Assembly (NCBI RefSeq): GCF_001186125.1 | Contig: NW_014040203.1 | Span: forward strand, 6,496-65,079 | Reading direction: 5' to 3' | From: Sphaeroforma arctica JP610 | Lineage: Eukaryota | Length of the DNA: 58,584 nt | Shown here: positions 29,501-57,600 of the stretch, one piece after another | Layout: every line of letters starts with the position of its first letter | How positions within the stretch are numbered: the stretch's first letter is position 1 | The notes under the pieces: model-generated | The model's input: the letters and a program-made list of their open reading frames with translations, nothing else | Databases searched by the model: none | Told to the model about the DNA's origin: nothing | Program-made: the position numbers and the translations under genes

Positions 29501-32270
29501 GTCTGCCGGATTCAACTTGAACTTCAGAGTATTTTATGTCAAAACACAGTCGCACAAGTAAATACTTGGGTGTCTATCGATAGGAACAAATATATAGTTA
29601 TATATTGCGTTTAAATTATTTATAATTTCATTTTTACATATCATATAAACAGTTTGTACACACTCTTTTTACAAGGTACGATATATCTGTATATTTTGCA
29701 GTCAGAGGTAGAAGCACAAAGCATTTGACACCTGCTTACCTTAAAATAGTTACCTTTATTATAAATTGAACTATGTTGATACTGGCATCCGAGTCATTAG
29801 TCTGTCGCGTATGTCGGTAAACTTCTCTCGGCTGAGTGGCTTCGTGAAAAAATCACTGAGTAGCTGTTCTGATGGTTTGTATTTTAGCTTGATGGTGTTG
29901 TTCGATGTGAGTTCCCTGATGTGATGATATCGTCAATCGATATGTTTTGTACGGTGGGATTTCGTGATACCATTTCCCATCAGTATTGCTGACTTGTTGT
30001 CCTGTTCTATGGTGGTGGTTTCTACGAGCGAAATGCTGAATTCTGTGAAGAGATTTCTAGCCCATACTGCGTCTTCGGCTGTATCAGATTGTGCTACGTA
30101 TTCTGCCTCTGCTGTAGACGTTAGTACTAGTCGTTGCAAGTTTGTACCCCACATAAATGGTGCACCTGCTATATTGCCCACTCGCCCGGTGGTGGATCGT
30201 CTTGTTGTGTCATCGCTAGCAAAGCTACTGTCTGCACTCTGATAGGGAATACATGGTTATTTGTTCGTGTATTCAAGTCCGAAGTCCTGAGTACCAGCGA
30301 GATACTTCAAACAGCGCTTGGCACTTCTGAAATGGTGGTACTGAGGTGCTATCAGATAGCGACTTAGGGTCGAAACTGCAAAGCATATATCCACTCGTGT
30401 TTGATCTACAAAGTATCGTAGCTGACCCACTAGCTTGTTGTATTGTGTGATTGTTGGGACGTCTGAACTTGCTGCCTTTTCCGGGAGACATGCATGTTTG
30501 TCTGTTACTTCATAGTCCGATTCTAGAATTGGCATCCATGCTGGTTTACAATCTATCAACCCCCATTCCTGCAATATTTCTCTTAGGTATTGTCGTTGAT
30601 GGAGACGTACTCTTCCAGGATGTATTTTAACTTGACACTTGAGAAACCATAACGGTAAGCCCATATCAACAGTGTCCCATTCGCATTTCATTGCGTCAGC
30701 TAATTTCTGTCCGTCGGTCTTACTCTGGCATGCTGCAATTTTGTCATCTACGTGTACAATAATGAAACAAGGTCCACTGTGTGTTTGTTTGATGAACAGT
30801 GCTCCATCCGATTGTGCTTGTTTATAACTGTGTTGTATAGCAAACCGATGGATAGCTTTAAACCAGTAGTGTCCGCTAGGTGGTAGACCGTATACGCAAC
30901 GGTCAACTCGACATACAACCTTTGTGTCTCCTTGCTTGTGCCTTTCGTATAGTTTTCTCTGAGACGGGTCCAATAGATGTTCGATGAGATCGTATCCTTG
31001 CGGCACTCGCATGTAGCTAGGGGTATACAATTCTTGAGTGAGGTAGGCCGAGGGTGTATCGTATTGTCGAATGTCCATGTCATAGTGTGCCATTAGAGTT
31101 AGACAGATCCTGAGTGTTTCCTTGGCTACTGCTGGGGCATAGCTTTATCGTATTCGACTCTCTGTTTTGCATTGAATGCTGCTACCTTCCGACGTGATTT
31201 GAGTCATGTGACTTGTCCTGATTCATCCGTTTTTACCTTGAAGACCCATCGAGGGGAAAATATCGATTTCTCTCGTTGTTTGTTGTCAGCCAGAGTGAAT
31301 GCCATGCGCTGTACCACCAAGCTCTCCATCTCCGAACGTGCTGATTCCTCCCAATCGGCTGCGTTTGGCATCTCATATATACCTTTGTATGTTTTTGGTT
31401 CCATTGCTGCAGTTGCTGAATTGACAGTGTGCGTAGTGCAAGGAGTTCATCTCTTACGGCGGCTATCGTGATACCAGTCGACATTATTATCATCTATCGT
31501 AAGGTCCCGCAGTTCTTGAGAGACTTGGCGACCTTCTGCCGTTCTTCTAGTTATGTTTGCTTCGAGATCATGTTGTGTTTTGGTAGTCGCAGCAGAAGCC
31601 TCCGACTCGACGGTATGTACTTCACTCTCAGCAGGTTGTTGTGTTGACGATGAAGTTATTTGTAGTTGTTCTGAGTTGCTCGACTTGTGCGTCACAGTGG
31701 GCTGGGTTTGTTGGCTAAGCATATCTTCCGTTGTCGATGTTGTCCTTGCGTCTGTTTGGAAATCGACATTCTCGATTTGGAAGAATGTACTACTGTTCGT
31801 AGTGTCAGGTGGTGCGATAGCGGTTGTACATTTGTTGTCTTCCCAGACAAAGAATTCATCTTCGAATATATAGACGTCTCGGCTTTGTATTATACGCTTT
31901 GTCAGCGGTGAGTATATACCATACGAGCCCGGTATTGTGTCCAAGGGTTGCGCAAGAAGAATGCCATCCAGTGCTTTGTCGTCGAGTTTGCCGTCTGGAT
32001 CACGGTTCTTGTATGCGATATGACACCCGAATATTCTGAACATATCTATCGGAAATGCGTATCCTGTAAACTTCTCGTTTGGGGATGAGCTCTTCTTGTT
32101 GGTGAGTATAGCATTGTATATGTTGGTAGTGTGAATCAGTGATTCAGCCCACATAGTAGTCGGTAGACGTGCATATTTCAGTTGTGCAAGCATTCTAGGG
32201 ACCAGTGTACCATGGAGTCTCTCCACCTTGCCATGGTATTGTGGCGTGGCCGTAGGTGCGTACCTCGAGC

Positions 32271-33120
32271 TGTAATAAGCCGGGCCTCCACATTAGACTC
32301 TATGTTATAAACGTACTCTTAAGAAGTACGTAAATTATAAACGTACTCTTAATAGTACGAGGAACTTAAGTTTCCTAAATGTACTCTTGATAGTACGAGG
32401 AACTTAAGTTTCCTAAATGTACTCTTAATAGCACGAGCAACTTAAGTTTCCTAAAATGATTTTTTTAATTGTTTTATTAATTAATACCGTTTCCATTTTG
32501 CATATCAGATATTTGGACGAGGCCATTAAAAGGCCTCAGTAAAATACCAAACATAAAGAGTTTGTCTAGTTCTATTAATAGAACTTTATTTACTTTCCAA
32601 CTTTATTTATATCTGAACACTTTGGTAGCGAGATGGCTCAACCGAATATAGGTTTCTAGAGACTATTAACGTTACCTAGTTGATCCTCCGATCAGCCAAC
32701 AAGATGTGCCAGTCTGATGAAGGCTAAGTCGGAAATTCTTGGTTGTGGCAAGTTATTGGTTAAGACAATAACTAAAGACATCAAGAGTATTTTTATTTTA
32801 TATTTGTTTATTTATTCTAAAGATATGATTTTATGAGTCTCTCGGATTCGCCCCCGTGAAACATACCATAGTTTCTAATAGAGCGACAACGAAACACTAA
32901 ATAAAATCCCTTCGGCGGAAACAGTACTGAGAGGATTATATATAGGCAATGTCTCAGCCTCACAATCCCTCAGAGTATTGCTGTTTTCACGAGGCATACA
33001 TAACTTTACTAAAAGTCTCATTTCGTTTATTTGCTTTGATATTTTCACGATACTTAGAATTTACCTACGCGTTTATTTATTCTAAGGCGTTAATATCGCC
33101 TTGGGAGACCGAATCTTACA
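32271..33120 (+). mobile_element. Solo LTR (850 bp, TGTAA...TTACA) with 4-bp TSD GAGC, inserted in the Copia A integrase
   Basis: gagc|TGTAATAAGC...GAATCTTACA|gagc. Removal restores LAYLGYCSRYAPTATPQYHGKVERLHG in one frame. Strand is not determinable from the LTR alone. Confidence 0.92.
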
Positions 33121-35102
33121 GAGCAGTATCCCAAATACGCAAGCATGCGCCTCGTTACGTTTGTTGTAAACTGTGAGCCTCGATCCATTTGTATGCACTG
33201 AACTCGGCGATGACTTAAGATGTACCATTCATCGAAGGTGTGTAACATAGCATCCAAAAAATTTGTCGCTTTCAGATCGCGGATCGTATACTCTTTGGCC
33301 ATGCTAGAAAAAACGTCTATGATTGATACAGAGTGGGCGTTGGATCCTATTGACGTTACGAACGGTCCTATTATGTCCACGAAGACTTACTCGAGAGGCT
33401 CTGTAGTAGGTTCGCGCTGTCGTTCCTTGTTTGTATTATTCTTCTTCTTCTTAGCAATAGTGCATGCTTTGCATCGTTCCTCTGGTTGCCTTATGTATGG
33501 TAAATCTTTTGGGACGTAGCTGGGGTGCGCGAGCCTGTTGTGCCATGAAATCTGGTTGGCTTTCTCCAGCGATGGTTCCACTGTAGTTATAGCTATGTCG
33601 TCGATGTGTACACAGTATATTCTGTGCTTTTCATGTACAGTTATGGTTCCGAAGCTTGGTAGTAATATGTACATCATGTTGTTGGTGAATTCAAATGAAT
33701 ATTGTCGCGCTGAGAGTAGGCTGATACTTAGTAGTGCAGTTTTAACTGTCTTATCAATGAGTACGTCCCCTAAGTTTCCTAGCTGAGCTACATACTTCGG
33801 ATAAACGATTGTACCATACCCTGGTCATTAATACGCATGTTGCTGACGAGGTGATGTTTGTGGTACTTATAGGGAAGTACGTGTATGGTGGTACAACTAT
33901 CGCAAGCTAGTCAGTATCCACCTCTGGAATCTCTGTCTGACTGATCATTCACCTCCTTGTTGTCGATTGTAGGGTTAATTGTGGAGAATACAATCTGTCT
34001 GTTTGCAGGTAGCTGGTCATCAGATACTTGTGCTGACATAGCTTTGTCTTGTCTACCTTCCTGAGCTTGGCGTCGATTGCTCTGGGATCTGTATGTTCTG
34101 TCAATGTCTTGTGCACGTTGGGTATCTCGTGAATATCTACCATCGTTGTAGTCGCGTTGATTGTACCTGTCTACTCGGTAGTCCTGTCGGTCCTGTTCAT
34201 CGTGATTATCGTAGCGGTATTGGTAGCTGTTGTTTCTGTTGTACTGTTCCACATGAGTACGGTTGTCACGATTCGAATCAGATCGGCGATGTTTGTCATT
34301 GTTCTTGGACTTAAATCTGTAGTCTCTCATGTCATGACGAGGACCAGATTGGTCACGACCCTGATTATGTGGGTTACCAGCAACATATGATTTAATTAGC
34401 GCTTGTAGCGTACGACATTGCCCGATGGAATGTCCACGATTGTTGCAGAGTGCACAATTTCCTGTCGGTATAACTGCATGCGCACCGTGCACAACGGTTG
34501 ATGGGTCACTTTCATCTGGATCCAATGTGATGAGATACGTGGTGAGCTCATCATACGACATGCCATCATAGCGGGTGTCTTCAACGTAATCTTGACAGTC
34601 TGATTATCGTCGTTTACAGCCTGCCGTAGAATAGCACATAGGCTGTTGTTAGACTTCGTACCTCCGGCGTTCTTGAATTTCACAAATGCCGTGTTGAGAC
34701 GACTGATAAGGCTGGCGTAAGATTCGTTCCGTTCTTGCGTGATACGGTTCAGTTTTCCTTCTAATGTCCGGATATCATCTTCGGTCAGGGCCTCAAACTT
34801 GCGTTTCAGTGCGGCAAAAGCTTCCCACGGCTTATCAATGAGTTGGCTGATCTCCGTCTGCAGTAACGGAGATAAGATGCGGTTGATAATCCGATAAGCC
34901 TCAGCGATTTCCTTGGGTGTCCATCGGTTCCCTCTAGACGGGGTCGGATCGGTCAATATTGTTGGGATTCCTTCACAATTCACGGATATAATTGTCTGGG
35001 GTTTCCAAGGAAGCCAGTCGACCTTCGATTCGAGAATAGAGGTGGTCTTAATTTCTTTAGAGTTCACAGTAGGCATATTGATATCGCGAGATCAGAGTGA
35101 CC

Positions 35103-35588
35103 TAGAGTGCAATGTAGTAGACTTTAAAAAAATTGCAAATGTATATATTTATTTCCGACTTCATCACCTTTGGTTTTATACCTAAGGTGTTTGAGCTGGT
35201 GTTCAGCCGCTTGGGCTGGCCAGGGTAAAAACTCATATGGTCAGTATGAGAAACCTTATGCGGAACACTTTAACACTTCAATGCTTTTATATTTCAACTT
35301 ATCTGCAGCTAAATCTCACGCTGATCGCATGACGTCTTTCCGCATAGGTTGTGACTCACATAGAACCGCAGTTATTATTAGAATGTTGCGGTTGACAGGC
35401 TTAATTCACACTCGGGAATCGGTTGAGAAACTTAATCTGATCTCGGAAGTCGGTTAAGTAATAACTCAACTCTTGAGAGTAATTTGAGCAACTTGATTAG
35501 CTCTCGGGAGTAAGCTAACTCTGATGACTTCTATATATCAAAGATGGTTTCTTGCTGTAAAATCTGGCCTGAGAACTGTAGTCTCTCA
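35103..35588 (-). repeat. 5' LTR of Copia A (TGAGAGACTACAG...GCACTCTA)
   Basis: High identity by eye to solo LTR 54120-54605 (reverse complement). It lies about 27 bp upstream of gag ATG 35076; the terminal ACA is missing. Confidence 0.85.
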
Positions 35589-40192: not shown

Positions 40193-40229
40193 CTGCTTCC
40201 CGCCGGCGCTTGCGAGAGCGTGTTTGTGT

Positions 40230-40385
40230 ATCCTTATGGTATGCCACGATGTCATTAGCATCGTCAAACGCCTCGGCCGTTTCTCAGGTAGGATCCCCTT
40301 CACGCCAGCGCACTAGGTACTCCGTCTGACCCGTGTCATTATTCATGCGATGTTGAATGATGTGTCGGAACGCAGACTCGTCCTC
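40230..40385 (-). other. Chromodomain at the Gypsy integrase C-terminus
   Basis: ESAFRHIIQHRMNNDTGQTEYLVRWREGDPT*ETAEAFDDANDIVAY; the stop sits where the conserved W of TWE is expected. Confidence 0.8.
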
Positions 40386-41607
40386 ACGCCATAGACTCTC
40401 ATCCAGGGGTGGATCCATACTCCTATGGACCGAATTCCGATGGAATCGAACCATCCCGATGAGCAAGGTCGTACCCCTGTCCGTTCCGGCCTTTAATTAC
40501 ATATGGACCAAACAAAGGGCGCATGGCCTTCGATGTGCGCCCTTCCGATTTGACCATCACCACATCGCCTTCCTCAAAGTGCACCAGATCGTCCGCATGA
40601 AGTCGGTCGAAGTTCCTCGTCAAAGTGTCCGTGTACCGTATCGTCAGCCTGTGCAACGTTGGTAAGATCGTATCCTGTAGGCGATCTAGGCGGTGAGCTC
40701 ATGTTTCGTTCGTAACCGGCTGGTGGTCTGGGGTATCGTCGGTAAAATCCGAAAATGGGACATGCCGGCGACCGAAGTATACACTAAACGGAGCACTCTT
40801 ATGCCGACGGGACACCCTTAAGTTCTGGTACAGCATCGTGAATGGGAGGCGCTCATCCCATGCGTGTGGTGTAGCCTCACAGCAAATCCGGATGGACCGG
40901 ATGATTTCTTTATGCCGACGTTCTGTAGCTCCTAACACTTGCGGACGATACGGCGGTGAGAGTTTGTGCATCATCACGACTTCCCGGACGATAAGGGCCA
41001 CAACTCCGTTAACAAATTCGGTTCCCATGTCCGACTGCATCTTCCTAGGGAACCCATGTTCGTCGAAGATTGCCAACAACGTCTGCGCCGGGGACTCCTT
41101 GGATTTGTCGGGTGTGGCGCGGAGAATCAAGTACCCCGAGGCTATGTCCAGAACGTGTAGGACATGTATATTCTTCCGGCGGAATACAATCGGCATCGGG
41201 ATGTAATCCACCTGAATGTGATCTCATGGGTAACGGGCGTCTATACTTACCACGGGGGGAAACCCTTTCTTCAGAGTATCCTGTCCCAAACACGCACTGC
41301 ATTGACGCTTAACTTCCGTCACTAACTCTAGAGCTCCCGGCCATATGTGGCCATTCTGTTGAAGTTGCGCCACTGTGTCCGCTGCCCCGTGGTGTCCTTG
41401 TTCATGTTGTGCTTGTGTGAGTTGTGTGCGTCGCTGTTGTTCGTCCAGTGACGCATTGGCAAATGCTGGTTGGGCCTCCGCACTCGTGATTGCGACTGAA
41501 AAATCCCGTGCTGTATCTAAACAACGAGGTTGAGGTACATATCGTGGTTCGGTAAAACCTAATCGCTGTTGAAACGACTCCGGCAGCAGAAAACCATTGG
41601 GGGGTCC

Positions 41608-42009
41608 AATTCTAGCAATCACTGTATGGCCCCACGGGGTTTTACTACATGCGTACTTAGCATGTTTCAAGAACGTGTGCGGTGTCCTCGGTACTAACAC
41701 CGGCTCAGACTGCAGCAAGGACTTGGATAAAGTGAACCACGGCGCTCGAGGGGCCCACGGAACACATACAGTTGCCGACGCCCCGTCGGCCTTAATCTTC
41801 CTAAACATCTTATGGATGAGCTTCCACGGTGGATTCATCCACCCATTAAGCAACGCCCAATTGTGCTGGAAGGCGCCCCCCCCCCGCTCGACGTGTGTCC
41901 AAAACCGAGGGAGTTGCGCATCCCCCGGCGTCGCGAACACATTCATATCGTTTGAGACGAAACTCTGCTGGGCTTGTGTGAAGTAGTTTGGGAACAGTTG
42001 CCAACAATC
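41608..42009 (-). other. Dam-like N6-adenine DNA methyltransferase domain in Gypsy pol (between RNase H and integrase)
   Basis: DCWQLFPNYF...DMNVFATPGDAQLPRFWT...AFQHNW...WMNPPWKLIHKMFRKIKADGASATVCVPWAPRAPWF. NPPW lies at 41835-41824, in one open frame with the RNase H end and the HHCC. Confidence 0.85.
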
Positions 42010-43144
42010 AACATACATCACTTCTGGTATATCGGCTTCCGCTGTCCCCTCGTGGACCCTACTCAACATATCAGGGAGAACATTCTTCTCTCCCGGAATG
42101 TGTGATATAGTGAAGTTAAACGGGGCTATAATGTGGTGCCAGCGTTGTAGCATCGGATCCAACTTCAACTGTGTATTCATATACACTAGCGCCTTATGGT
42201 CCGTGAATGCTGCGAATCATTACCCGTCGAGGAATTCGAGGAAGTGTGCAAGCCCATATACAAGCGCCAAGAGTTCCTTCATTGGCGTGGCGTAATTCTG
42301 TTGTGCCTGATTAAGAGTCTTACTGAAGAACATAAAGTAGTGCTTCTTTCCCTCCACCCACTGGAACAAAGCCCCTCCGATGCCATAGTCACTGGCAACT
42401 GTCTCCAAGTTCAGGGGAATATCCTCCACTGGGAAGTGGAGAGCCACCGCGTTAACTATCGCCGTCTTCATAGCCGCCAACGCCTCTGCGTGGCGAGGCC
42501 CCCACCTTGTCCCAATCAACTCGTTAGGTTTCAGCTTACAGAACTCTCGGAGTGGTGCTACTATGTGCGCAAAATTTGGAAGATGTTCGTGGATGAAGTT
42601 CGTAAGACCCAACGCCGATGCTATATCCTTGTAACGCTGCGGGTTCGGCCAATCCAGCAGCTTCGCCTGCTTCTCGAAATCAATATCAATGCCTGCTGCT
42701 GACACCTTCTTTCCGAGAATCATTACCTCCCTGATCGCAAAGTGACATGTATCAGGATTCAACTTGAAGCTATGATACGTAAGACGGCGAATCACCTCTG
42801 TAACCGTTGCATTATGCTCTTCATAGTCGTCACCCGCTATCACTATATCGTCGATGTAATGGTGTACGGGGAGGCCATCCAAAATTGTGCTCAACGTCCG
42901 TTGGAATTGCTGGGTGAGAACGTGCAGACCGAATGGCGCCGATGTAAATGAATATTGGTGGCGCCCATGGGTGAAGCTAAACAAGTACTGAGAATCTGGG
43001 TGAATCGGCAAACGATGATACGCTGCTGAGATATCCAATGTTGTATAATACTTCTTGCTCTGTAACCGCGATATGATCTCGTCACCATGGGGAGTAGGAA
43101 TTGGTCGCCTGGGATCAGACCATTGACTGCTCGCATATCGAGGC

Positions 43145-43625
43145 TATTGATCACAGTAAACCAGGATTGTTTACCAAGCATAAAACTACGGTCAAACACC
43201 GGAGGATCAACAAGGTTTATCCCAGCATCAAGCAAGGAGAGAATCTAAGCTCAGAGAGGGACACAGTAATATTACAGATGGAAATTAATCTCGGAGCCGA
43301 AGTGCCGGGAGTACGGAAACATCATTATAGAAAATCTCTGATGGGCATAAGGGCATCCCTAAATATCGGAGGAGTACAATCTAAACGTATAAGGCCAAAG
43401 ATTACAATGGAAGCCACGATCAGTTGAAGACGTGGCGACGCTGCCTTTGGATTGGATCATAGATTAAGTTGAGAATATTTTTCACCTTAAGAGGTGTTTT
43501 TCAATGGCTCAAGGATTACGAGTACAACGCATATAAAAGCAGGGACTCGAATCAAATAAATCACAACTATTCACTTAAAACTTAACTTAAAACACTTCAA
43601 GATACTTTAATATCTGAGAACAATA
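43145..43625. mobile_element. 481-bp insertion (solo-LTR-like, TATTG...CAATA ends) with 5-bp TSD GAGGC, in the Gypsy RT
   Basis: gaggc|TATTGATC...GAACAATA|gaggc. Removal restores RVCL-DMRAVN. Confidence 0.88.
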
Positions 43626-46600
43626 GAGGCAAACTCGTACCTTCTTAACATTCCCCTCGCTATCAAAGGTCGGTACCGCTAATAGTGGTAGGTTCACTGT
43701 AGTTGGAGTAGTTCGCTTGATAATAACTAAATCTCGTAGCCACTTCTGCACCTGTTCTTCCACGTATGGTATCCATCGGTCTGACACAAAGTTCTTAGTT
43801 GAACGACGCATGTTCATTGTTTGGTCTCTAGTGACCGGTATGGCCACCTCACTTCCTTCCAATCGGCATCGTGCGCTATCTGTAATCGCTGCATTCGCCT
43901 CTAATACTGATTTCAGATCCTCCCGGATGCCGTCAGGCTCGGTTAAATCTGGGGCTCGCTGTCTAGTGATCGGCTTCAGTATGTTGTCCAACTCTTTCGG
44001 ATCTGTAGGTGCTAATGGAGATTGTAGTCCTCCTAAGTATAACCCTAAGCCCGGCATAATATCTACCCCGATGATCACATCGATGCCTACCGGTAGATTC
44101 ATGAGCTACAAGGAACCGTTAGTTATAGCCGTTCCATATCTAATTGGGATGCTCTTCGTCGTCCCCAGTCGCCGAGTACGCGCCGCTTGATCCGCCAAAT
44201 AAATGTATGAATTAGGAGGAGCCGGAGATATCGGAAGGCCTAGCGCCTCTACGGATGCCTGCGAAATACAACCTCTATTTGCGCCTGAATCTACCAGGGC
44301 TCGGAATGTGCGACCATTCAACTGAACTTAAACATACACCCGTTGGTCTGCTGTTAACAGTGGGTCTTTTATCGCCTGTACCGAGTATCCTATATACGCA
44401 AACGTCAAAGCTATATCATAGTCAGACACCCTGATATCTCAAGGTTGATCTGATATGGGAGACCATTCTGGGGATATCTTATCGTCTCCTATCGGATCAC
44501 TCTCCCCCATATCACCAAAAAGCAGCGCTCCAAGATGTAGATCCGTGGCGGTAGGTGGGGTTTCCCACGCCGACGTGTCTGTGAGACTATGGACTTGCGG
44601 TTGCGTCGTGTTGTCGCCTCCCGCGCTTCGTACCGGTGGAACAGATGGTGTTATCGTTGAGGAAGGTGTTACTGCACTATGCGGTCCCGGGCCACGTTGA
44701 TGTGTCTCTAACGTGCGGCCACGGTTGTCCTGGGTTGCTGCCCTATAGTTATGACAGCGAGGAATGTGCCTCAACCCTGGTGGTGCTTGTGCCTGGCACC
44801 CGCCACATGTTGTTGTTGTATTCGACGGTGGCGTGCGCTGTTGCCACTGTTGTGTCCCTCGTGGAGTGGTCATATACGGTATACGTGTTACCGTCCCATC
44901 CCCCCGTTGATGATCGTTGGTATGTGGTCGTCGGTTCGACATTCACGCCGTAGTTCTTGTCTGTGCTTCTTGAATATCAGGACTGAGAAGCTGCAACAAT
45001 TCGTGAGTCTCCATCAAGTGCCACTTGGTGTGCAGTTGTAGCGTCCGCTCATATGTACGAGACCCAAGAGAGTCTTCCAACAACTGCACAATGCAGTGGT
45101 TCAAAAGGCTTTGCTTGAATTCCGCATCCGTCTGGCTGCATTGGTGGGCACGTCTGTGATTCTCCATTAATTGTGTCATCTGTGCCATAATAGGTACATT
45201 TGACACCCGAGAGTGTCCCTTCGCCAACTTACGGAATGTGGGGTCGACTGTCGCTTGAGTTTCGTGAGAGCAGATCTGTGTTATCTGCAACTCTGGAGTC
45301 CAATTGACCAAACGTTGGTTGGACTTGATATAATCTAAAGTAGACTGCTCGGCCTTGAAGTGGCTCAGAACCTTATAAAACCACCGCAAACTCCACGCCG
45401 TGTCTAGGCCCGAGATCTGCGCGTTCTTTAGCGCCTCCACCAGGGCTCCTTTAGTATCTCTCTCTAATACATTGTGTAGTTGGTATCGGTTCGACGGCCA
45501 TTCAGGCCTGCTTCTCGGTACTCGTGGTTCGTGCTTGGTTACGGGGCGCGAGTCATGTGTGGCTCGTAAGGTTTCTAACACTCCTCTCAGCGCCTCGGCA
45601 CGTGGAAGATCATCTGCCTCAACCGCTCTGCACAATTATTTCGATAGTCGGAGCATCCGCGCATGAAGCGCTTGGCGATCCGCCGCAATACTCTCCGGTG
45701 TCGGAGGGGTCACCTTGTCACCAGCCGTTAGTTGGGATACCTGTGTCGTAGGGGTCGATAACACCGTGTGTTCGGGTATCGAGTCTCGTAGAGCCTCCGG
45801 AGAATGAACCGTCTCGGAAAATCGATCACGACGGTTGTCCAGTGCCTCCGGCCCATGAGGGTCTTGTGCTGCTCTTTGTTGCGCATGTACAAAATATTGT
45901 TGGGAGATCGCTGCCCGTGGTGTATCTGAGTCGTGAGGTCCCATCCCTTGGGCTGCGGCTGGGTATCCGACTCCGTATCTAGCCGCACTGCCTGGAATCC
46001 TGAACTCTTAACGTACATTCTTCCCAACTGGCTCCGGCGGCTGACTGGTACTCATACTCTCCTCCTCCTGGCCCGGATCTGAAGAAATAGTGGTCGGACC
46101 TCTTCGAGGTCTCTCTGCCTGCCGCTGAAAGTGTTGCAGCCGCTGCTCATATTTCCCCAGCAATTCTTGCTGTTTCTGCAGTAGCTGATCCGTCTTGGAT
46201 TGCGCATTGCTCACGTATTGACGGCTCTGACGGTAAGGGCGTCGCTTCTGACGAGGTCGAGTCTGTCCTTGTTGGTGTAGAATCCTGCCACCGTCATTCT
46301 GACGCTTCTGTCCCCTATCACTACCTCGCCAGGTGTGGGCGCACGGAGGTGACGACTCGTTGCTTTTGCTCGGCGGTGCTGAACCCTCGCCTTGTCTCAA
46401 CCACTAGGGCTTTCTGCAGCATTGTCTGATTCGTCCGAAATGGTTCGTCTGCCTCCCCTCCGCTGGTCCTCAGACAACCCTTGGTCTCCCTCTTGAGAAA
46501 GGCCAGCTCTACGCTTGAAACCTCGTAGTTGGCTCGTACTACGTACATGTTGCTCGGGTTCCAGACCATGCTGACGACGACTCTTACGGGTGCTCGGCAT

Positions 46601-47847
46601 TGCAGTAAGGTTACGGTGCTTGTATGTCTAAGTCGAGAATAATTGATCTCTAACCTATTTACTTGTTGCTTATATATGCAACGGATGGCACCTCTCTTGA
46701 CACACATGCCTACTCCCAGAGTCCATGGACTCACTACTCCTCGTGCAGATTAATTGCATGGAGTAACTCTTCTTTATTACTCTTTGCTTTAGACTCATGC
46801 TCCCCCTATTGTCGCACGTGCTTCTTCTGTATACATACTCGTTCAATCTATTACTATTCTAGTCCCGACCGTACGTGTTGTCTACCTATTATTTCTCTAT
46901 TCCATCCATCCTGCATCTCTTGCTCCTCTTACTTCTTCGCTGACAGCTGTTCTGTCGCGCATGCTCCACAATGTGATGCTATTACGTGTCTCATATCGAA
47001 TTTTGTGGTAGTCTTCTCACACCTCTACTTCCACACTTATGCTGCTCATAACTAATTGCTATCGTATGTTACACTTATACGAGGCCAATACACAATGCTT
47101 CACTTCCATATATGTACCGCTAATATCTACTGATCCCTTATCACACACCTCATGTACACTACTTCATATTTGTTCATTACTAATGTTCACACCTTCCTAG
47201 CAACACTCATCTGCCAATAGACTCCACCTATGTTTCAGTCACGTCTCCTTGTTATCCATAGAGACTTACCTTGTCCATAGCAAACTTCCCCTGTCCAGTG
47301 TTCTTCGTTCATTTCCTCGTCATGGTCATGTCCCCAAATACTCGGTGTGTCTGGTACACTCACTAGTCGTCGTAACCTTGCTGGAGGTCCTGCTTGTCGT
47401 CTCCTCCACACATTCGTGTATTCCTGTATCTCTTCACTACTTATTGTTATAGAGATATACCATCTGGCTGATCTCTGCCGTCTCATGTCTAGGGGTTGAT
47501 TCATTTCACAGCGCGATCCGCGTGGTGGCGTCATTTCTTCATTTGGGTATCCTTCTGCTTCGTTGCCCACCTCGGAGTCGCTTCCTGAGTTTGACAACAA
47601 TGATGGCAGGCTCAGTTCACTGCTACCGAACCCGCTATCCTCGCTTCCCAGCTGTCGGTCTGTCGTGGACAGTCCTATGGGTGTATTTCCCTCTCTCATG
47701 TGACTTCTTGGGGGGTTTCTCCATTGTCCTGATATTGACGCTCTTATCCTAGCGAAAAAATTATGGGTCAGAATTCTGTCTTCTTTAGACTACGTCGGTT
47801 ATCACCTTTCTTCAATAAAGTACAACTAATAAGCCTGTTAAAAATAC

Positions 47848-47969
47848 AGTCAAATACGCGAGTTAACAATATCTCAACGTACTCCCCTCTTACAAGGGGA
47901 GACGTTGTATCTTTATTGAAATATAAAATGAACCATATATTCTAATATTTGATATGTGTATAAAATTGG
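47848..47969 (-). repeat. Remnant of the Gypsy 5' LTR (3' ~120 bp only)
   Basis: Direct repeat of 39829-39949 with several substitutions. Confidence 0.88.
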
Positions 47970-48989
47970 TCATAAACCCTAAACCAGAGTTTATGACCCT
48001 TTTTCAAATAAACCTAAAAACGTGAAACAACCTAAATAGAGTATATCTGACCACAAAGTGAATTTTACAATTATGGTAGCTGTGCTAGTCGTGCTGGTGT
48101 CTCTCAATAGAAGACATCCCGCACAACGACATAATACTTGGTGGTCTTTTATGTACGCTTATAGTAGACAATTCACTATATGAAGTGTTAGTCCAGTTTG
48201 ATATCTAATTATACAGTTTTACTGTATATGCAAGACTTCTTTGCTTACAGCATCTAACTACTAAAGTGCATAAAGAACTTCGTGGCAATTGTAATTTTCA
48301 CTTGTACAGAAGGTGTTGTTAAGAACTTAGATTGAATAAAAACACTGTAATAATAGAATAATACTTCAACAATAAAATATTGAAAAATATAAACTTGCCT
48401 AGTACTTTCAAATTTACATATACTTATCTTTTGGTTTCTTCCTGGTAGATCCTTCATTGCTGTTTGTTCGACTTGTGAATACTTTTCGATAGATGCCTTT
48501 TCATCATGAGTTTTCGACCTTTGAATTTAAATTGCGATCATAAATCTGGAACTTCAAATATTTTCGTCTCTTCCTTGAATTCTGGTAAGTAATCGCACTG
48601 CTAAAATCTTGAGACTTATATAGAGACACTTAGGATGATTTTTGTACAATACATTCTGGTACAAGTCTCTCAGACTTAGAATTATTCAGATGTGTATAAG
48701 CGATTAGTATATGATTCCCATATTATATCTTGTATTGATTTTCGCATGTGTCTCGTATGTTTCATCCTGATATGTATTGATATTTATATAGTGCTTTTCT
48801 ATTGTCCATGGACACACAGACCTCACTTCTATGATGGGCGTCCCCAAAAAAGTGGAATGACTATAGCAATTGCAATAGTAGCAATCTGTTCTATATCACC
48901 TGAACATAATCGTAATTGTTTCATTCATATCGAATAAATTAAATGCTCTTTAATGTACGGCTTGTTAAATTTACACTTGTGTTTACTGT

Positions 48990-49940
48990 ACAGTTGTCAC
49001 CGGGTACATATGTCTTCTATAGGTCAGACATCTTGCTCATTATCTTGACTCGAGCGTATATAAACTTTTTATGGTCTAAAGGTTTTGTAAGCATATCGCT
49101 TAATATTTCTGTTGTTGGTGTGTATACAAGTCGCACTTCGTCTGTGACTGTCCTTACTTTTGTGAAGTGATAAGAGGACTTTGATTTCTCACTTATCTTG
49201 ATCGACGACTTGTTATTTTGTTCGATGATCGTGGGCTATGTTTGCGGTAGACCAATTCCTTCAAGTAGGTGCCGTGTCCATACTGCGTCTCGTGTTGTAT
49301 CTGAGCATGCGACATATTCTGCTTCGGCTGTCGAAAGTGCTGTTGTCTTCTGCAAGTTCGTCCTCCATAAAAACGGTCCACCTGCTATCATTCTAATTTT
49401 TCCCGTTGTAGATTTTGTGTCCTCTGAGTTTGAACAGTAGTCACTGTCAGCTGAAAATGTACGTGTGAAGGGTATATCCTTACTGTATGTAGTGCCCAGA
49501 CTTCGTGTGCCTGACAAGTATCGTAAAACTCGTTTGGCGGCTTGCAAGTGGTGTTCCATCGGTGCGACTAAATGACGTCTCAGTAGGTTAATTGTGAGTG
49601 ATATGTCCGGTCTCGTGCCATCCGCCAAGTATCGTAAGCATCCTACAATGTGTTGATAAGCTTTGATGTCTCAGTAGGGTTGTCTTTGTCAGTAGCAATA
49701 TGATCAGTTCCAATGCAAGGGACCCGAGATGTATTGCATTCTAGGTCAAATTCTTCAGTAGATCCCTTGTGTATTGGCCCTGATGTATGCTGACGTTGCC
49801 CGGTGTATCCAGATTGATTGTGAGTTTGAGAAACCAGCTAGGCTCGCCCATATCTGTAGTGTTCCATTGCGTCTTCATTGCCTGAGTTATTGCATACGCA
49901 TCTGCTTTCGATGAACACATCACAATTGCTGGCTTCAAAA
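48990..49940 (-). mobile_element. Copia RT/RNase H fragment, related to Copia A
   Basis: MKTQWNTTDMGEPSWFLK, TRPDIS, AAKRVLRYLSGT, ADSDY, KSTTG, LSTAEAEYVA, SDMLTKPL. Confidence 0.9.
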
Positions 49941-50048
49941 ATCAAAATATTGTGTACTATTGCGCGCAAGCTAAACCACACGCTTGGAGTAGCTGACGGG
50001 TATGGGCTCAGGAGGTTGTAGTACGCGTGCGCAAACCCGCCTTTATTT

Positions 50049-50612
50049 TTATTTAGAAGTCAAATTTTCCTGGAGGTATAGTTCCTGACGTTGCGAAAGG
50101 GAGTGTATTCGAGGTTGCTGTGGTCGCACCAGTCTCGGTGGTCGTTGTTTGATGGTCAAGCTTATTCTTATAGCCGGAGACTCAGATGATTCATTCGTAG
50201 TTACATCCAAGTTGTCGGTTGACTCCGTAAACTCTCCTTCAAAACGCATACGTTTTCTGAGGGCACGAATGAACACCATAGCAGCGGCCTCTACGGTGTC
50301 ACATTCCCTGGAAAACGCCCTTTCTTGTTTCTCCATATCGATCGTCATGCGCTCGTGCATCCGTACAAGAGCTTTGAGGTCAGCCACGACACCCTTTGTT
50401 TTCTTTTGAGTTGATTCAAATTTTACAGCCAACTCCTGGATTCTTTTTTCGCCCTCTTCGATTTTTGATTCAATGCACTTGATCTCATCTTTCTTGGCGA
50501 TACCGACTAAATCAATGTTGAATAGGTTGGTCATGTGCTCGTGTTCAGCCCGTACCAATCTCGCATCAAATTCATCTTCATACGCCTTTAGTTTCTGAAT
50601 GCGTACCTTCAT
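50049..50612 (-). CDS. Intronless coiled-coil-like ORF (187 aa) of unknown function
   Basis: K/E-rich heptad-like sequence (KDEIKCIESKIEEGEKRIQELAVKFE) lying between TE fragments; no family recognised. Confidence 0.35.
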   Translation of the reverse strand: MKVRIQKLKAYEDEFDARLVRAEHEHMTNLFNIDLVGIAKKDEIKCIESKIEEGEKRIQELAVKFESTQKKTKGVVADLKALVRMHERMTIDMEKQERAFSRECDTVEAAAMVFIRALRKRMRFEGEFTESTDNLDVTTNESSESPAIRISLTIKQRPPRLVRPQQPRIHSLSQRQELYLQENLTSK

Positions 50613-50749
50613 TTTTTTGTCCCAATGGTGTCAATTCATATTCGAGATAGGATTGGAGCATTTCCACGACAGCTTTAAGGCGGTCATATTCCTCTCGTGA
50701 AGGAACTTTGGTGTCATTGGTGTTCATGGTGAAAGTGCCTATGAAAAAA

Positions 50750-51976
50750 TACTAGAGAGATTTCTATAGGTTATGGACAATAATTTCAACCCTTCTACCT
50801 TTTAGTCATATCGCTAACACCCCCCCCCCCCCCCCCCCCCCCGCAGCACAGGTCTACTCTAAGGACCTTAATCCTAACTCACAATATAGTTCCAGATGAT
50901 CCCCATGAGCCATACGACCAAGTCATCCGTACGCCTCGTGCTGACTGGACCCCTGCACAGAAAAATACTGTATGGACATGTGATTTCGTCAATGGGCTCA
51001 AAGAAACAGGAGAGTATAACCAATCCAAAGCCCTACTTGTAGCTACTCTATGCAAACCGCTCCGCCTTACCCTTGCAGCGACCATTCGCGCATCTCATCC
51101 ATGGAATCTTCTCCAGTTTCTTCAGGACCGATTCCGCTATCAGCCCAAGCAGGCCTATGGCTTCGTAAATGTCGCCTATCTCCGTTCTCTCTCCCATACC
51201 CCTCACGAAACAACTAGAGCCTGGACCCACCGAGTTGAAGATACTATCTCTCGTGCAGCGTCCCAAGAGACCACATTTTCAACTGAAGTCCAACAGAATC
51301 CCTTTATCGACGGACTATCTACGAATGACAAAGCTCAGCCTTGAAATGTACACCTCATGGCTGTCCAGAACCGATAAAATGTCACTATCCACAATTTTAG
51401 TGGATCACCTAGATAGATGGGACTTGAATCCCAACCCTCTACCAGCCAACACCAATGCCATCTCTCATGCAGCATATACGGCACCAGCTCCCGACACTAC
51501 CCTCCAAGAAATCGTACGCATGATAAAGACATTCAAAATTCACGTGGAACAAGAGGAGACCGAGTCATGAAATTCTATGTTTGCCAACCATCAACACCTC
51601 ATCCGTCTGCCCTAAAGGATGTGGCAAGTGCAAACACACTGGACGTGAATACACTATTACCTCACTGCAATGCACTGGTTTTAATATAAACGATTATGTC
51701 GCCACTGTATGTAGCAAGCGTACGAATAAAAACAACTTTCCGTATCGCAAAGTTGCTATCATTGCCTCTATATCATTGGATGTCAAATATACACGCAATA
51801 CAACCAAATCCACAAATATCTCACTACTCATAGACGATGGTGCAACGGTTGACTACCTTCACACATCCGCCGAGACACTACCAACGAAGATTTAATGCGG
51901 TCACTTTCCTCTAAAGCTTGCCGACAGTCTCACCACAACAATCACGACCCGATGTATTCTGCCTAACCTAGGCATG
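50750..51976 (+). mobile_element. Copia gag-protease fragment (decayed)
   Basis: PBS-like GGTTATGG at 50769, gag-like HPWNLLQFLQDRF, Cys/His knuckle-like CPKGCGKCKHTG, and protease-like LLIDDGAT...LKLADS. It ends abruptly at the LTR starting at 51977. Confidence 0.65.
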
Positions 51977-52373
51977 TGTTAGAGTGCGATGTGGGGGAAT
52001 ATAAGTAAAAGAATGGTGCGTTCGAATGAATTTATTTATGATCTCACCCTCAGTTGTATACTGATGGTGTTTGTACTAGTATTCAACCACTTGGGTTGGC
52101 CAGGGTAAAAACTCATGTGATCAGTGTGAGAAACCTTATGCAGAACACTATAGCACTCGGATATGTTTCCTAGAAATAAATATATCATATTCTCTGTTAC
52201 TACACTCAGTCTCGGACCTCGGCTCTCGGCTAGCCAGTGGCCCGTGTGCTATAAATAGAACAATCGGAGAAGAAGTCTCAAAATACTCTTACGTTCTCTC
52301 GGGCCGAACGACGTAAACCGATATTAACGTATATAGAAATACGTCTGCTTCTGTAGTCTCTCACTCCCCCTCA
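51977..52373 (-). mobile_element. 3' LTR (51977-52363) plus PPT of a Copia related to the Copia A LTR family
   Basis: The minus strand reads TTGAGGGGGAG|TGAGAGACTACAG...CACTCTAACA and shares the ggccagggtaaaaactcat...gagaaaccttatgc core with 35103-35588. Confidence 0.82.
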
Positions 52374-53659
52374 ATTTTACAATCAAAGGCTGAAGGCTGA
52401 AGGCTGAAGACCTATTTGTGAAATTGTTGACTCTGACACTCTGTAGATGGGTTGGGCAACTGGGGTGCACTACAGAATCTCACTAGTCTTACATCGACAG
52501 GCTCTCCTGATACAACGCTCCAAGCTTTAGAGGAGATCCGCCAACACTTGATCGATGCTGGTGAAAACATCCCCGACGACACCTACAAGTTACTTCGCGC
52601 AGACATATTTGATCACGATCTGGATGCCCTCACCATCGACGAGGTCTATAAAAAGGTGCTCAAATTTTGCTGGTGACAACCAACTTGATTCCTCACTGCC
52701 AATCTCCGGACTCGTGGCCTTCAAAACCCCTGCTGACCGTGGCAACACAGTCGATACCAAAGATGCCACCCCGAGTCGACTGAATCCTTCCGCTCAACGC
52801 CGCGACCGCCCTAATTGTCCTCTCTGTGGCAAACCAGGCCACAGTATTTCCGGCTGTCCCGATTCAATCTGCCGTCGTTGTGGTTCAGCCGACCACAAGG
52901 GTAATAAATACCCTATTGATCGTTCTACACTTTCGTGTTCCAAATGCAACAGAAGCGGTCACAACAGCACGGCTTGCATCTCTAAGTGAAACCACGGGGT
53001 TCATCACGGCAATATTAGCACTAACTACGTTCCAAATCAGAATATTTCCAAGGACACTGCAACAACTGCTTCTCCGGACATCTCTTGTCCTACAGCCCTC
53101 CACCAGCATTTTTCCAAGGATTCCAATATTCCCAATAAAGCGGACATAAATACACTTACTGAACGCTATCGCCTGCAGAGTGCAATATACCAAGATGGGC
53201 CCACAGCACCCCTATATTTAGCCGAGTCTCTCATTGACTCAGGCGCTATGATTTACATATATAACACAACCGAAGGTGTTACAAACATCCAGCATGGCAA
53301 CTTCAAAGTCGAATTCCCGGACAAGTCTCAAATAACGCTACACGCACGAGGCACGCTTCCAGGATTGGGCCACAAGCAGCACAAAACATCCTATCTGTCG
53401 ACTCCTTCAACGCAACGGTTTCGATGTCAATTTCTCCGCACAAGTTCACGATACGTTACCTACAGTGTGCCACATCACGGACCCTACAGGTCAGACACAT
53501 ACTATTCCAGACGTGAGCGGCCAATACAAAATAGCTACCTGTCCCACTCGCACCCTCGCAGATTGGCACAACGTTCTTGGTCATACGCACCCCCGCAAAA
53601 CACGACTAACCCTTTCGCAAAACAACATCGATGCTTACGTCGCCAAAAGTGACAACACA

Positions 53660-54080
53660 GACAATTGGAAGTTAAACCCTATCCAGAAACACGTCGCTGA
53701 ACCTTTCGGTATCGTCGATATCGATTTATTTGCCTGTGCAAATAATGCACAAGTTGCTAATTATTGTAGTTTGGAACCAGAAGCTCCACTTCATGACGCT
53801 TTTGGCCAGTCTTGGAATCAACTGAAGGTCCATCTCTACGCCAACATACCGTTCACCAAAATGCACTGAGCTGCCACGCTCAACAACTGGACACCGAAAA
53901 TGGCTTGGTTACTGTCGTCTTTCCTCTGGCTCCCCTGCATAACAAATGCTACCAACAAGCACTCAACAGTTACATTCACATGTGGAAGTTGTCCGCACGA
54001 CTTCTACTACATTTCTTCGCAACGGCTCCGACGTGGTTGGCCCACCAAAATGGAGATACATTTGTGTTGCTCGCTTGGGT
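53660..54080 (+). other. Dam-like N6-adenine DNA methyltransferase domain inside the Copia integrase Zn finger (frameshifted)
   Basis: DNWKLNP...FGIVDIDLFACANNAQVANYCS...DAFGQSW...LYANIPF (NIPF at 53843-53854), then after frameshifts VTVVFPLAP and TFLRNGSDVVGPPKWRYICVARLG. Confidence 0.85.
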
Positions 54081-54119
54081 AACGCTAAACACGCCGTCCC
54101 TCCCACAGCTAATCTACTT

Positions 54120-54605: not shown

Positions 54606-57600
54606 TACTTACAGCCCAGGACGATGTCTGCTCACCCTACTGATGAAACAAACTCAAAGATCCTGCGACTCGCCCGCCACCGGGTACTATCTTCCACGTT
54701 GACTTCGAAACAGGTCTGACACCATCGGCAACTGGCTGCACCTCTAAAATCAAATACGTTGATGCCAACAGTGCTATGCTCTTCTCTTATCCACTACAGT
54801 CCAAGGACGAGGCAGCTCAAACTCTTGACCTGTTTTACACCTGGCTAGGAAAAGATAAACTGGCCAAACTTGAAGAACTCAAGTGCGATCGTGGTGGCGA
54901 ATTAGTTTCTCGCGAATTTAAAGCCATCAACACCGTGGAACACGTCAAAGCCCTGTACACACCTACTAATTCCCCAGCACTTCATGGCTTAGTGGAACGT
55001 ATGAATGGCATTATCGCGGATCTCATGCGTGGCTTTCTCGACCGTTCTGGTCAGCCTGAGCAAATGTGGCCCGAGGCATTACGCCACGCTACATTAACGC
55101 ACAATATTAGTCGCAACGATCGGAACCGTGACAGTCAATCAGTTTGGGAAATCTTCTACGGCGATAAATCTGACAAACGTATTAAACATATGCACATATA
55201 TGGTTGTCAAGTGGCTTTTATCAATCAGGATCCCACGTCCAAACTTGATGACAGAGCCACACTAGGGGTTTATCTGGGGCACGACATCGACTCTAAATAT
55301 TTCGACGAGTGTAGAATTCTCAGCGCCAAGTCCGGCCGCATATGTCATTCTAGTGATGTTAAGTTCAATGAACATGTCTTCCCTACTTAGACTAAGGTTG
55401 GGACTACACCCCTCCCTCACTTCACCACACTGCGGGACGACATACCTACTATACGGGAACTTACACTGGCACTCAATGTCACGCAATCATCTACAAATGA
55501 CGTACCTCTGCCTTCCCCTTCTCCTATTCCTCCCAACCTCAGTCGACATGTCAATCCAGACGAGCTTTCGCCGGCACCTGCCACTCGTCCTTCCCCAGAC
55601 TCTGTTTTTCGTCCCACATATACGCAACAAGCACAGGTTTCAGGGGAGTCATCGCAAGTTATTTATGATAATGCTGCACGCTCTACTGATTCCAGAGAGC
55701 CCCCGCACCTGCCTCCTGCCGTCTCACCACATGCACCACCAGATCCTGTTTGCTCCTCACCTCCGCGGTCTAGCACTATGGAAGACAGTCACAATACCGC
55801 TCTTCAATCCCATATCGCCAACCATCCAACGTCACGTACACTTCGTGCGTTACTATTGGAACCTCGTTCCAACACCGGCATCCTCAATGAACCTGAATTA
55901 CCATCTAACATGCGTATGACCCGTACTCGTGCCCGACAAATGAATGAACATAATGCCGCCATCGCCGATCAGCTCAACTGTATTACCAGTCCCACTCGTC
56001 CGGCTACCAGTCATATCCATTGGTCTCAGGACAGAAAATTATGGCTTTACTGCTCCCGTCATGACCACTCTTGCCGATGGCATCGTGCCTCTAGACACGT
56101 CTGGCAAAGAACTACGTCGCAAGGAAGAATATATTCGTTCTCTTCACCATCTTCGTCGTGCACAACGTCAAAACAAGCCATTCGCCGGGCTGCTATAACG
56201 CACGCTCGCTCTAGCGCCAACAAATCCCTCAAATCGATTGCTAATCAGCCTCCACAACTTACACTTACCAATCTGTATTCACACGACACCACCTCCACCG
56301 CCAAGATCACGCCGTCCACCTGATCGCACTGTCGACGAACTCTACAGGATATGCGCAACAATACACATTAATCCACTTACCCCACAGTCCATCAAAGCGG
56401 CCCTCCGTGGCACAGATACTCCTCTGTGGCGCGAGGCTATCGACCGCGAGCTACACAGTCTACAACAGACCGGCACCTACAACTTGCTTACACCGGATGA
56501 AGTCCCCATGGCGCCTTTATCATCACTAGCAAGTGGGGGTTTAAAGTCAAAATGACAGACGGGCTGGTCGATAAATACAAGGCCCGATTGTGTGCAAGTG
56601 GTTTCACACAGACGCAGGGCAATAGCTATGATGAAACGTTTGCCCCTACTTGTTTCCACGAAACACTCCGAACGGTATTAACAGTCGCTGCAGCGCAAGG
56701 GTGGCATGTTGAACAGATGGACGTTGATACTGCTTACCTTTATGCCGATCTCGACGAGCCCATTTACATGCACCCGCCGAAGGGTTCCGGCGCCGTTGGT
56801 CTCCCCGACGAAACTATCACGGCCTTGAAGAAAAGCCTCTATGGCTTAAAACAGTCCGGACGCCTTTGGCATGCCTTAATCAAATCCAAGCTTCTCGACA
56901 CGGGATCTACACAAAGTGCATCTGATCCTTGCATGTTCATCATCACCGAAGCCAATTTATCCTGTATTGTTCTACTATATGTTGACCTTATTATTTGTGG
57001 CAAACGGGAAAGCGACGTCCACCACTTCAAAACACTACTCCAGAATGAGTTTAGTTGTAAAGATTTAGGTCGTCCACACTGGCTTCTTGGTGTGCGTGTA
57101 CTTACCACGACCGATTCCATTAGCCTTGTGCAGGATCATTACGTCGCAGATGCACTCGCCACATTTGATCTCCGCGACGCTCACACGGCTATCACTCCAG
57201 GCACCATGGCTGCTGTCTACAAGAACCAGGGCTCCCGCCGTCCATGCTCGTACCGCGAATTGATCGGCACCCTTCAGTATCTTTCAGTCTTCACTCGCCC
57301 CGACATATCATACCCTTTGAACAACCTGGCTCGATACATGGACAACCCCTCGCTTGAACACTGGTCAGCGCTGTGCGTATCCTACGTTACTTAAAAGGCA
57401 CACCCGAACTCCGTTCAACCTATAAACACGCACCAGGGGCTCCAGTTCTCGATGCTTTTGTCGACGCCAATTACAACGCATGCCCTGACACTCGTCGCTC
57501 TACCAGCGGTTACATTCTCCGCATCAATGGCGTCCCTGTTGTGTGGAAATCACAACGTCAGAAGACTGTTACCACTAGCACCGCCGAAGCGGAGTATTAT

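What the first reader, a model, noticed from the sequence alone, without database searches (positions are those of the whole stretch)
41608..54080. Gypsy and Copia retrotransposons share a Dam-like adenine methyltransferase module
Seen: two DDE-integrase LTR elements from different superfamilies each encode a collinear ~135-aa module. Gypsy versus Copia: DCWQLFP/DNWKLNP, DMNVFA...DAQL/DIDLFA...NAQV, AFQHNW/DAFGQSW, WMNPPW/YANIPF, ATVCVPWAP/VTVVFPLAP, and TFLKH...PWGHTVIARIG/TFLRN...PKWRYICVARLG. The modules sit at different polyprotein positions, but both adjoin the integrase Zn finger. Copia A in the same window has a compact HHCC with no such insert. Known: this DLFA...N.Q...DAF...W...[N/F]PP pattern is the phage-Dam-like MT domain of DIRS1-group tyrosine-recombinase retrotransposons and is not a standard Gypsy or Copia domain. 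Inference: repeated capture or inter-superfamily exchange of an integrase-tethered 6mA writer, possibly marking cDNA or the insertion site (self-recognition, protection, or mimicry of active chromatin). I cannot confirm from here whether this has been described.
Basis: partly seen in the sequence, partly recalled or inferred. Interest (0 to 1): 0.92.

Follow-up and report, generated by a model that had tools for sequence, protein, structure and literature searches.

The report
Copia integrase carrying adenine-methyltransferase domain
Two broken jumping genes of different classes here carry the same adenine-methyltransferase-like domain; the Gypsy design was described in a 2026 preprint, but the Copia one, with the domain set inside its integrase, was not found in print and likely marks the element's own new DNA copies.

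Summary
Observation confirmed. Both modules are at the stated places, match each other (0 of 2000 shuffles as high) and weakly match Pfam Dam. The Gypsy element (RNase H-DAM-integrase-chromodomain) is a DAM-LTR, described in a May 2026 preprint; this scan noted six such on other DNA. The Copia element is the new part. Its DAM follows the HH half of the integrase zinc finger, where CxxC normally lies; no CxxC was seen. It is not debris: other copies lack this copy's frame breaks and the solo-LTR insertion, differences are synonymous-biased, and three Sphaeroforma arctica proteins show the same design. An intact relative folds (pLDDT 81) as a SAM-dependent N6-adenine methyltransferase, best matching PCIF1/CAPAM. 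Three unnamed proteins (two full-length) show a second Copia design, DAM between integrase and RT. The preprint covers only Ty3/Gypsy and DIRS; searches of papers and scan notes found no Copia-DAM. The tree nests the Copia domain among Gypsy DAMs, but AU tests do not reject alternatives. Catalysis is untested: the motif reads NIPF, and the preprint's E. coli assay was negative. New variant of a known kind.

The parts
41605..42009 (-). Gypsy DAM-like module (DxW ... NPPW ... TFL ... PW), in frame between RNase H and integrase
   Evidence: 63% identical to S. arctica protein P0054
44140..44333 (-). Gypsy aspartic protease (broken)
   Evidence: Pfam gag-asp_proteas E 1.3e-8, read with X at a stop
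42070..43750 (-). Gypsy RT and RNase H, interrupted by a 344-bp insertion at 43168-43511
   Evidence: RVT_1, RT_RNaseH; TG..CA insert with 5-bp duplication; outer limits approximate
40702..41439 (-). Gypsy integrase: H2C2 finger and rve core
   Evidence: Integrase_H2C2 E 5.7e-5, rve E 5e-10
40215..40385 (-). Gypsy chromodomain, broken by a stop
   Evidence: Pfam Chromo E 7.2e-5, 23.1 bits, below cut-off 25.1
52552..52986 (+). Copia B gag C-terminus with zinc knuckles
   Evidence: zf-CCHC E 0.0098
53104..53450 (+). Copia B protease (LIDSGA), frame change near its end; limits approximate
   Evidence: no Pfam hit; 34% over 61 aa to P0041
53564..53584 (+). HH half of the Copia B integrase zinc finger (WHxxLGH)
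   Evidence: the same region of P0041 matches gag_pre-integrs positions 21-65 of 67 weakly, E 0.064
53660..54080 (+). Copia B DAM-like module (DxW, DLFA, NAQ, DAF, NIPF, TFL, PxW); broken in this copy by two frame changes (near 53884 and 53963) and a stop (53867-53869)
   Evidence: 55% identical over 140 aa to intact P0002
54120..54605 (+). Solo LTR (TG..CA, 486 bp, 5-bp target duplication) of the Copia A type, inserted later between DAM and integrase core
   Evidence: 92% to 35103-35588; other copies run on without it (loose ends)
54647..55387 (+). Copia B integrase core (D, D, E motifs visible) and SH3-like domain
   Evidence: SH3_retrovirus E 2e-11, rve E 0.016; 63% to P0001
56501..57900 (+). 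Copia B RT (RVT_2) and RNase H region, followed by a purine tract and TG at 58026
   Evidence: RVT_2 E 3e-50; RNase H read by eye, no Pfam hit
29900..35588 (-). Copia A: DAM-less control element with compact HHCC

Best explanation
A decayed Copia retrotransposon carries a Dam-like domain, predicted to fold as an N6-adenine methyltransferase, between the HH motif and the catalytic core of its integrase, likely taken from a Gypsy DAM-LTR, and the domain would methylate adenines on the element's own new DNA copy. Shown: the layout, its conservation in other copies and related proteins, and a second Copia layout elsewhere. Predicted: the fold. Inferred: because the domain lies inside the integrase it should stay with integrase on the cDNA in the pre-integration complex; 6mA seeded there would be maintained by host AMT1 after integration and keep the new copy in transcription-permissive chromatin (the model the preprint proposes for Gypsy DAM-LTRs). 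The Gypsy element in the window is an ordinary decayed DAM-LTR of chromovirus layout.
For: Other copies: of 19 contigs laid from run X1, 17 are under 95% alike; contigs differ from the window copy by one-base indels at its two frame changes and by a substitution at its stop, and run on from the module into the post-LTR sequence. Of the 25 listed differences inside the module 17 are at third codon positions and 14 are synonymous against 29% expected (p 0.0004 and 0.005; only 40 of 88 differences were listed). The two best hits of a search of 1.84 billion proteins, and hit 41, are Copia-B-type proteins named S. arctica, on contigs of three different lengths: P0001 (HH, DAM N-half, rve), P0002 (whole module and linker), P0041 (protease, HH, DAM N-half). 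AlphaFold model of P0002 with 61 sequences: pLDDT 80.6, pTM 0.76; the 6 Foldseek matches at E<=0.001 are all PCIF1/CAPAM, followed mostly by KsgA/ErmC-type and other SAM-dependent folds. Careful tree of 39 DAM domains: the 4 Copia-B rows (99/97) are sister to Gypsy P0016 (98/89), within a group holding the window's Gypsy DAM (95/92); P0016 shares NIPF. Second design: full-length Copia polyproteins P0022 and P0165 and partial P0122 have DAM above the Pfam cut-off between integrase and RVT_2. Preprint: Gypsy DAM-LTR insertions in S. arctica and A. whisleri are enriched for 6mA and more expressed.
Against: No methylation was measured. Motif IV is NIPF in 3 of 152 rows against NPPW/NPPF in 99. The preprint's E. 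coli expression of DIRS and LTR DAMs gave no 6mA; Iyer et al. call the DIRS domain likely inactive. The best fold match is an RNA-cap enzyme. AU tests reject none of four alternatives: all Copia DAMs one clade p 0.20, Gypsy group without Copia B p 0.14, Copia B with DIRS p 0.13, Copia B with the window's Gypsy p 0.26; the bootstrap had not settled. No intact full-length Copia B copy was seen; P0001 and P0041 hold only half the module. The host is inferred from relatives only.
Confidence: 0.5

Rival explanations
1. The domain is conserved but catalytically dead: a nucleic-acid- or chromatin-binding module that has taken over from the lost CC half of the zinc finger, or steers integration.
For: NIPF instead of NPPW/F; long branch of the Copia-B group, 0.77; sub-threshold Pfam scores of 16.9-19.2 bits; no CxxC seen; negative heterologous assay; Iyer et al. 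view; earlier scan notes report degenerate motifs in other Gypsy DAMs (untested here).
Against: DLFA, N/T-AQ, DAF and the motif IV Asn, Pro and aromatic residue are kept; an intact Gypsy polyprotein has the same NIPF; ErmC' is recalled, not checked, to be active with NIPY; the second Copia design keeps NPPF.
Confidence: 0.27
2. The domain is active but on RNA, like PCIF1/CAPAM: it methylates the element's genomic RNA (cap-adjacent or internal adenosine) or the RNA strand of replication intermediates inside the particle.
For: All 6 Foldseek matches at E<=0.001 are CAPAM; weak PCIF1_WW Pfam hits in related domains; Iyer et al. place the DIRS domain in the PCIF1 clade; no activity on E. coli DNA.
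Against: CAPAM identity is only 10-12%, TM 0.54-0.59; the sequence matches are to phage Dam families; a position inside integrase favours a DNA-stage role (inference).
Confidence: 0.18
3. The Copia module is nested DIRS or Gypsy debris, or an assembly chimera, in one dead copy.
For: The window copy is broken and heavily nested; no Copia-B relative in the metagenome scan, 0 of 598 stretches.
Against: Same junction in diverged copies and three separate proteins, synonymous bias, clean domain limits with no RNase H or recombinase remnants.
Confidence: 0.03

Closest known systems
DAM-LTR retrotransposons (Fernandez-Moreno et al., bioRxiv 10.64898/2026.05.21.726589; whole main text read, supplement closed)
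   Same: Dam-like domain in the Pol of an integrase-encoding LTR element; ichthyosporean lineage incl. S. arctica; NPP motif; self-marking model. The window's Gypsy fits.
   Different: All its LTR lineages are Ty3/Gypsy-like, classified through RVT_1; 'copia', 'ty1' and 'PF07727' occur 0 times. Its ichthyosporean lineage is said to lack chromodomains, whereas this Gypsy has a weak one. No DAM inside the integrase zinc finger is described in the text.
MT domain of DIRS1-type tyrosine-recombinase retrotransposons (Iyer et al., PMC4738411; passages read)
   Same: Same domain family; 81 of 152 rows classified as DIRS by their flanks.
   Different: Here the carriers use DDE integrase and LTRs; in DIRS the domain follows RNase H.
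PCIF1/CAPAM cap-specific adenosine N6-methyltransferase
   Same: Best structural match; same clade according to Iyer et al.
   Different: 10-12% identity; no WW or helical domains; substrate of the retroelement domain unknown.
Retrotransposon-borne cytosine methyltransferases (de Mendoza et al. 2018, PMC5890265; search listing only)
   Same: Repeated capture of a DNA-methyltransferase domain by retrotransposons.
   Different: C5-cytosine enzymes, not N6-adenine.

Membership tests
Ty1/Copia (Copia B) | Order protease-integrase-RT-RNase H | tested here: met
Ty1/Copia (Copia B) | RVT_2-type RT | tested here: met
   PF07727 E 3e-50
Ty1/Copia (Copia B) | Compact HHCC finger before the integrase core | tested here: not met
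   HH present, DAM follows, no CxxC in window frames examined or in P0001, P0002, P0041; no intact copy seen, so loss of CC is likely, not proven
Ty1/Copia (Copia B) | Paired LTRs with target duplication | tested here: inconclusive
   purine tract and TG at 58026; no matching 5' LTR in the window
Ty3/Gypsy chromovirus | Order protease-RT-RNase H-integrase with C-terminal chromodomain | tested here: met
   (Chromo just below cut-off, broken by a stop)
DAM-LTR (preprint) | DAM domain in a Ty3/Gypsy-like LTR Pol with RVT_1 | tested here: met
   Gypsy element only
DAM-LTR (preprint) | Ty3/Gypsy-type RT for the Copia carrier | tested here: not met
   Copia B, P0022, P0122, P0165 have RVT_2
Dam-like N6-adenine methyltransferase (PF05869 / DIRS MT) | Profile match above gathering score | tested here: inconclusive
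   window modules 18 bits < 28.1; many relatives found with their profile pass
Dam-like N6-adenine methyltransferase (PF05869 / DIRS MT) | SAM-dependent Rossmann-type fold | tested here: met
   model of P0002, Foldseek
Dam-like N6-adenine methyltransferase (PF05869 / DIRS MT) | NPP(Y/F/W) motif IV | tested here: inconclusive
   Gypsy NPPW met; Copia B NIPF deviates; second Copia design NPPF met
Dam-like N6-adenine methyltransferase (PF05869 / DIRS MT) | Methyl transfer to adenine in DNA | not testable with these tools
   preprint assay on other DAMs negative
DIRS | Tyrosine recombinase instead of DDE integrase | tested here: not met
   both carriers have rve integrase; no recombinase hit in the frames scanned

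The most novel reading that the evidence does not exclude
Copia elements have taken an active N6-adenine methyltransferase from Gypsy DAM-LTRs at least twice; in the Sphaeroforma lineage it replaced the CC half of the integrase zinc finger, giving a methyltransferase-integrase fusion that writes 6mA on cDNA or the target site at the moment of integration.
Probability: 0.3. Interest if true: 0.8.

Novelty: new variant of a known kind. Interest (0 to 1): 0.58.

Why it matters
It extends adenine-methyltransferase capture from Gypsy and DIRS to Copia, in two layouts, and points to domain exchange between LTR superfamilies that share a host. A domain locked inside integrase narrows the open question of what these domains act on, since it must travel with integrase. 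Screens keyed on RVT_1 and the Pfam cut-off would miss or orphan these elements, and may have counted them among 'DAM-less' controls. Published Nanopore 6mA data (GSE331346, named in the preprint) make the prediction testable now if the host is S. arctica.

Tried and rejected
No whole genome was held, so no genome-wide copy count or dN/dS. Word-based protein searches with the Gypsy frame found nothing (0 of 145 and 0 of 1186 candidates). No PDB sequence match. Single-sequence fold of the Gypsy module was useless, pLDDT 36.9. VIA-align searches and the second Atlas look-up did not complete; the one Atlas answer gave eukaryotic unnamed clusters and one with Dam in 14% of members, a lead only. 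Metagenome scans: no Copia-B relative; with the second-design alignment 27 loci, 0 with Copia domains, 19 DIRS-like, 1 Gypsy-like, 7 unassigned. No RNA holder was listed. Dinucleotide and GATC content does not separate DAM carriers from Copia A. An apparent CSPY reading after the solo LTR was dropped as the CC motif because other copies differ in length there and P0002 supports the other frame. RT and integrase identities give mixed signals on whether the two Copia designs are kin: Copia B RT 32-39% to the second design and 29% to Copia A, integrase 24-25% and 39%. Pfam scans of 61 further frames gave only an M20 peptidase. Paper searches for Copia with such a domain and scan-note look-ups found none; subscription journals and the preprint's supplementary figures (domain co-occurrence, Fig. 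S1B, S2) could not be seen and may show RVT_2 cases.

Full report
Setting. The window is microsatellite-rich eukaryotic DNA with three decayed LTR elements: Copia A (about 29900-35588, minus), a Gypsy element (about 40200-46300, minus) and Copia B (about 52450-58300, plus). No genome was held. The closest named relatives of both modules are Sphaeroforma arctica proteins, so the host is likely that ichthyosporean or a close relative; this is inference.

Observation. The Gypsy module is intact in one frame between RNase H and Integrase_H2C2. The Copia module runs over three frames. Read with X at the breaks, the two share 33 identities over 134 positions and 0 of 2000 shuffles score as high, though the pieces alone are weaker (51, 243, 1 of 2000) and BLASTP missed the N-half. 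Both match Pfam Dam at about 18 bits, under the 28.1 cut-off.

Gypsy half. Protease, RT, RNase H, DAM, H2C2, rve and a broken chromodomain follow in order. Intact polyproteins with this layout came back from the representative search (P0016, P0032, P0090, P0098, P0128, P0135). The preprint 10.64898/2026.05.21.726589 (whole main text read; supplement closed) describes this kind as DAM-LTRs, including an ichthyosporean lineage. One difference: it says that lineage lacks chromodomains. Six earlier scan notes record Gypsy DAMs on other DNA.

Copia half. Gag knuckles, protease, WHxxLGH, DAM, integrase core with SH3, RVT_2 and RNase H follow in Copia order. A 486-bp solo LTR with a 5-bp target duplication, 92% like the Copia A LTR, was inserted after the module. 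Contigs of four runs show diverged copies (12 of 19 laid from X1 under 90% alike) that differ from the window copy exactly at its two frame changes and its stop, and that continue from the module into the post-LTR sequence. Of 25 listed differences in the module, 14 are synonymous and 17 at third positions (p 0.005, 0.0004; 40 of 88 differences were listed). P0001, P0002 and P0041 repeat the design at 50%, 55% and 32% identity; in P0041 the weak GAG-pre-integrase match ends where Dam begins. In ordinary Copia the CxxC follows HH after 24-28 residues (P0022, P0165); here DAM starts at that distance and no CxxC was found. Without an intact full copy the loss of CC is likely, not proven.

Second Copia design. 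P0022 (1248 aa) and P0165 (1506 aa) are uninterrupted Copia polyproteins with a normal HHCC and DAM (48 and 44 bits) between SH3 and RVT_2; P0122 is a partial third. They come from unnamed assemblies; their hosts are unknown. By flanks, 152 rows split into 81 DIRS, 58 unassigned, 9 Gypsy, 4 Copia; only 150 of 667 hits were listed. A metagenome scan gave 0 Copia among 27 loci, so the design is rare.

Fold. P0002 folded with 61 sequences gave pLDDT 80.6. All 6 Foldseek matches at E<=0.001 are PCIF1/CAPAM, followed mostly by KsgA/ErmC-type and other SAM-dependent folds. Iyer et al. (PMC4738411, passages) place the DIRS domain in the PCIF1 clade and consider it likely inactive. Motif IV is NPPW in the Gypsy module, NIPF in Copia B, P0002 and Gypsy P0016 (3 of 152 rows), NPPF in the second design.

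Origin. A fast tree of 103 domains (those covering at least 105 profile positions, plus two half-length Copia-B rows) and a careful tree of 39 that I chose from it place the four Copia-B domains beside Gypsy P0016 (98/89) in a group with the window's Gypsy DAM (95/92), and the second design elsewhere. AU tests reject none of four alternatives (p 0.13-0.26). A Gypsy donor and two captures are favoured, by the tree, the shared NIPF and the different positions, but not shown.

Mechanism. Shown: layout and conservation. Predicted: fold. Inferred: a domain between HH and the core cannot be cut away with RT and so accompanies integrase on the cDNA; seeding 6mA there would let host AMT1 keep the new copy in permissive chromatin, in line with the 6mA and expression excess that the preprint reports for Gypsy DAM-LTRs. 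I give this 0.5, a dead binding module 0.27, an RNA enzyme 0.18, debris 0.03. The preprint's E. coli assay was negative.

Novelty. 'Copia', 'Ty1' and 'PF07727' do not occur in the preprint's text, which classifies by RVT_1. Six paper searches and four scan look-ups found no Copia with an adenine methyltransferase; scan notes do hold Copia with cytosine-methyltransferase-like domains at the protease-integrase junction (untested here). Unseen supplements and subscription journals may bear on this. Verdict: new variant of a known kind, interest 0.58.

Noticed in passing
window 54120-54605 and 35103-35588: The Copia A LTR is very abundant in the laid runs (summed contig depth about 100 times that of Copia B's body) and appears as a solo LTR inside Copia B.
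   Followed up: partly
window 43168-43511: 344-bp TG..CA insertion with a 5-bp target duplication inside the Gypsy RT.
   Followed up: no
window 32271-32741 versus 8542-9380: An AT-rich repeat of about 1 kb interrupts the Copia A integrase and has a second copy on the other strand.
   Followed up: no
window 51970-52420: LTR-like stretch about 82% like part of the Copia A LTR, just upstream of Copia B gag.
   Followed up: no
window 22373-23066: Exons of a host M20 peptidase gene.
   Followed up: no
window 6185-8159: Long open frames with 45- and 48-bp repeats, apparently Thr/Pro-rich, no Pfam hit.
   Followed up: no
window 36539-36984: Exact 223-bp tandem duplication, possibly an assembly artefact.
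   Followed up: no
L001 2682-4367: Retroelement frame with Dam (E 2e-11), aspartic protease and a weak C5 methylase match (E 0.005) in that order after a gag-like region; resembles the preprint's EpiLTR idea.
   Followed up: partly
protein P0023: Gypsy-type integrase with DAM at its C-terminal end, after a chromodomain-like stretch: another position for the domain.
   Followed up: no
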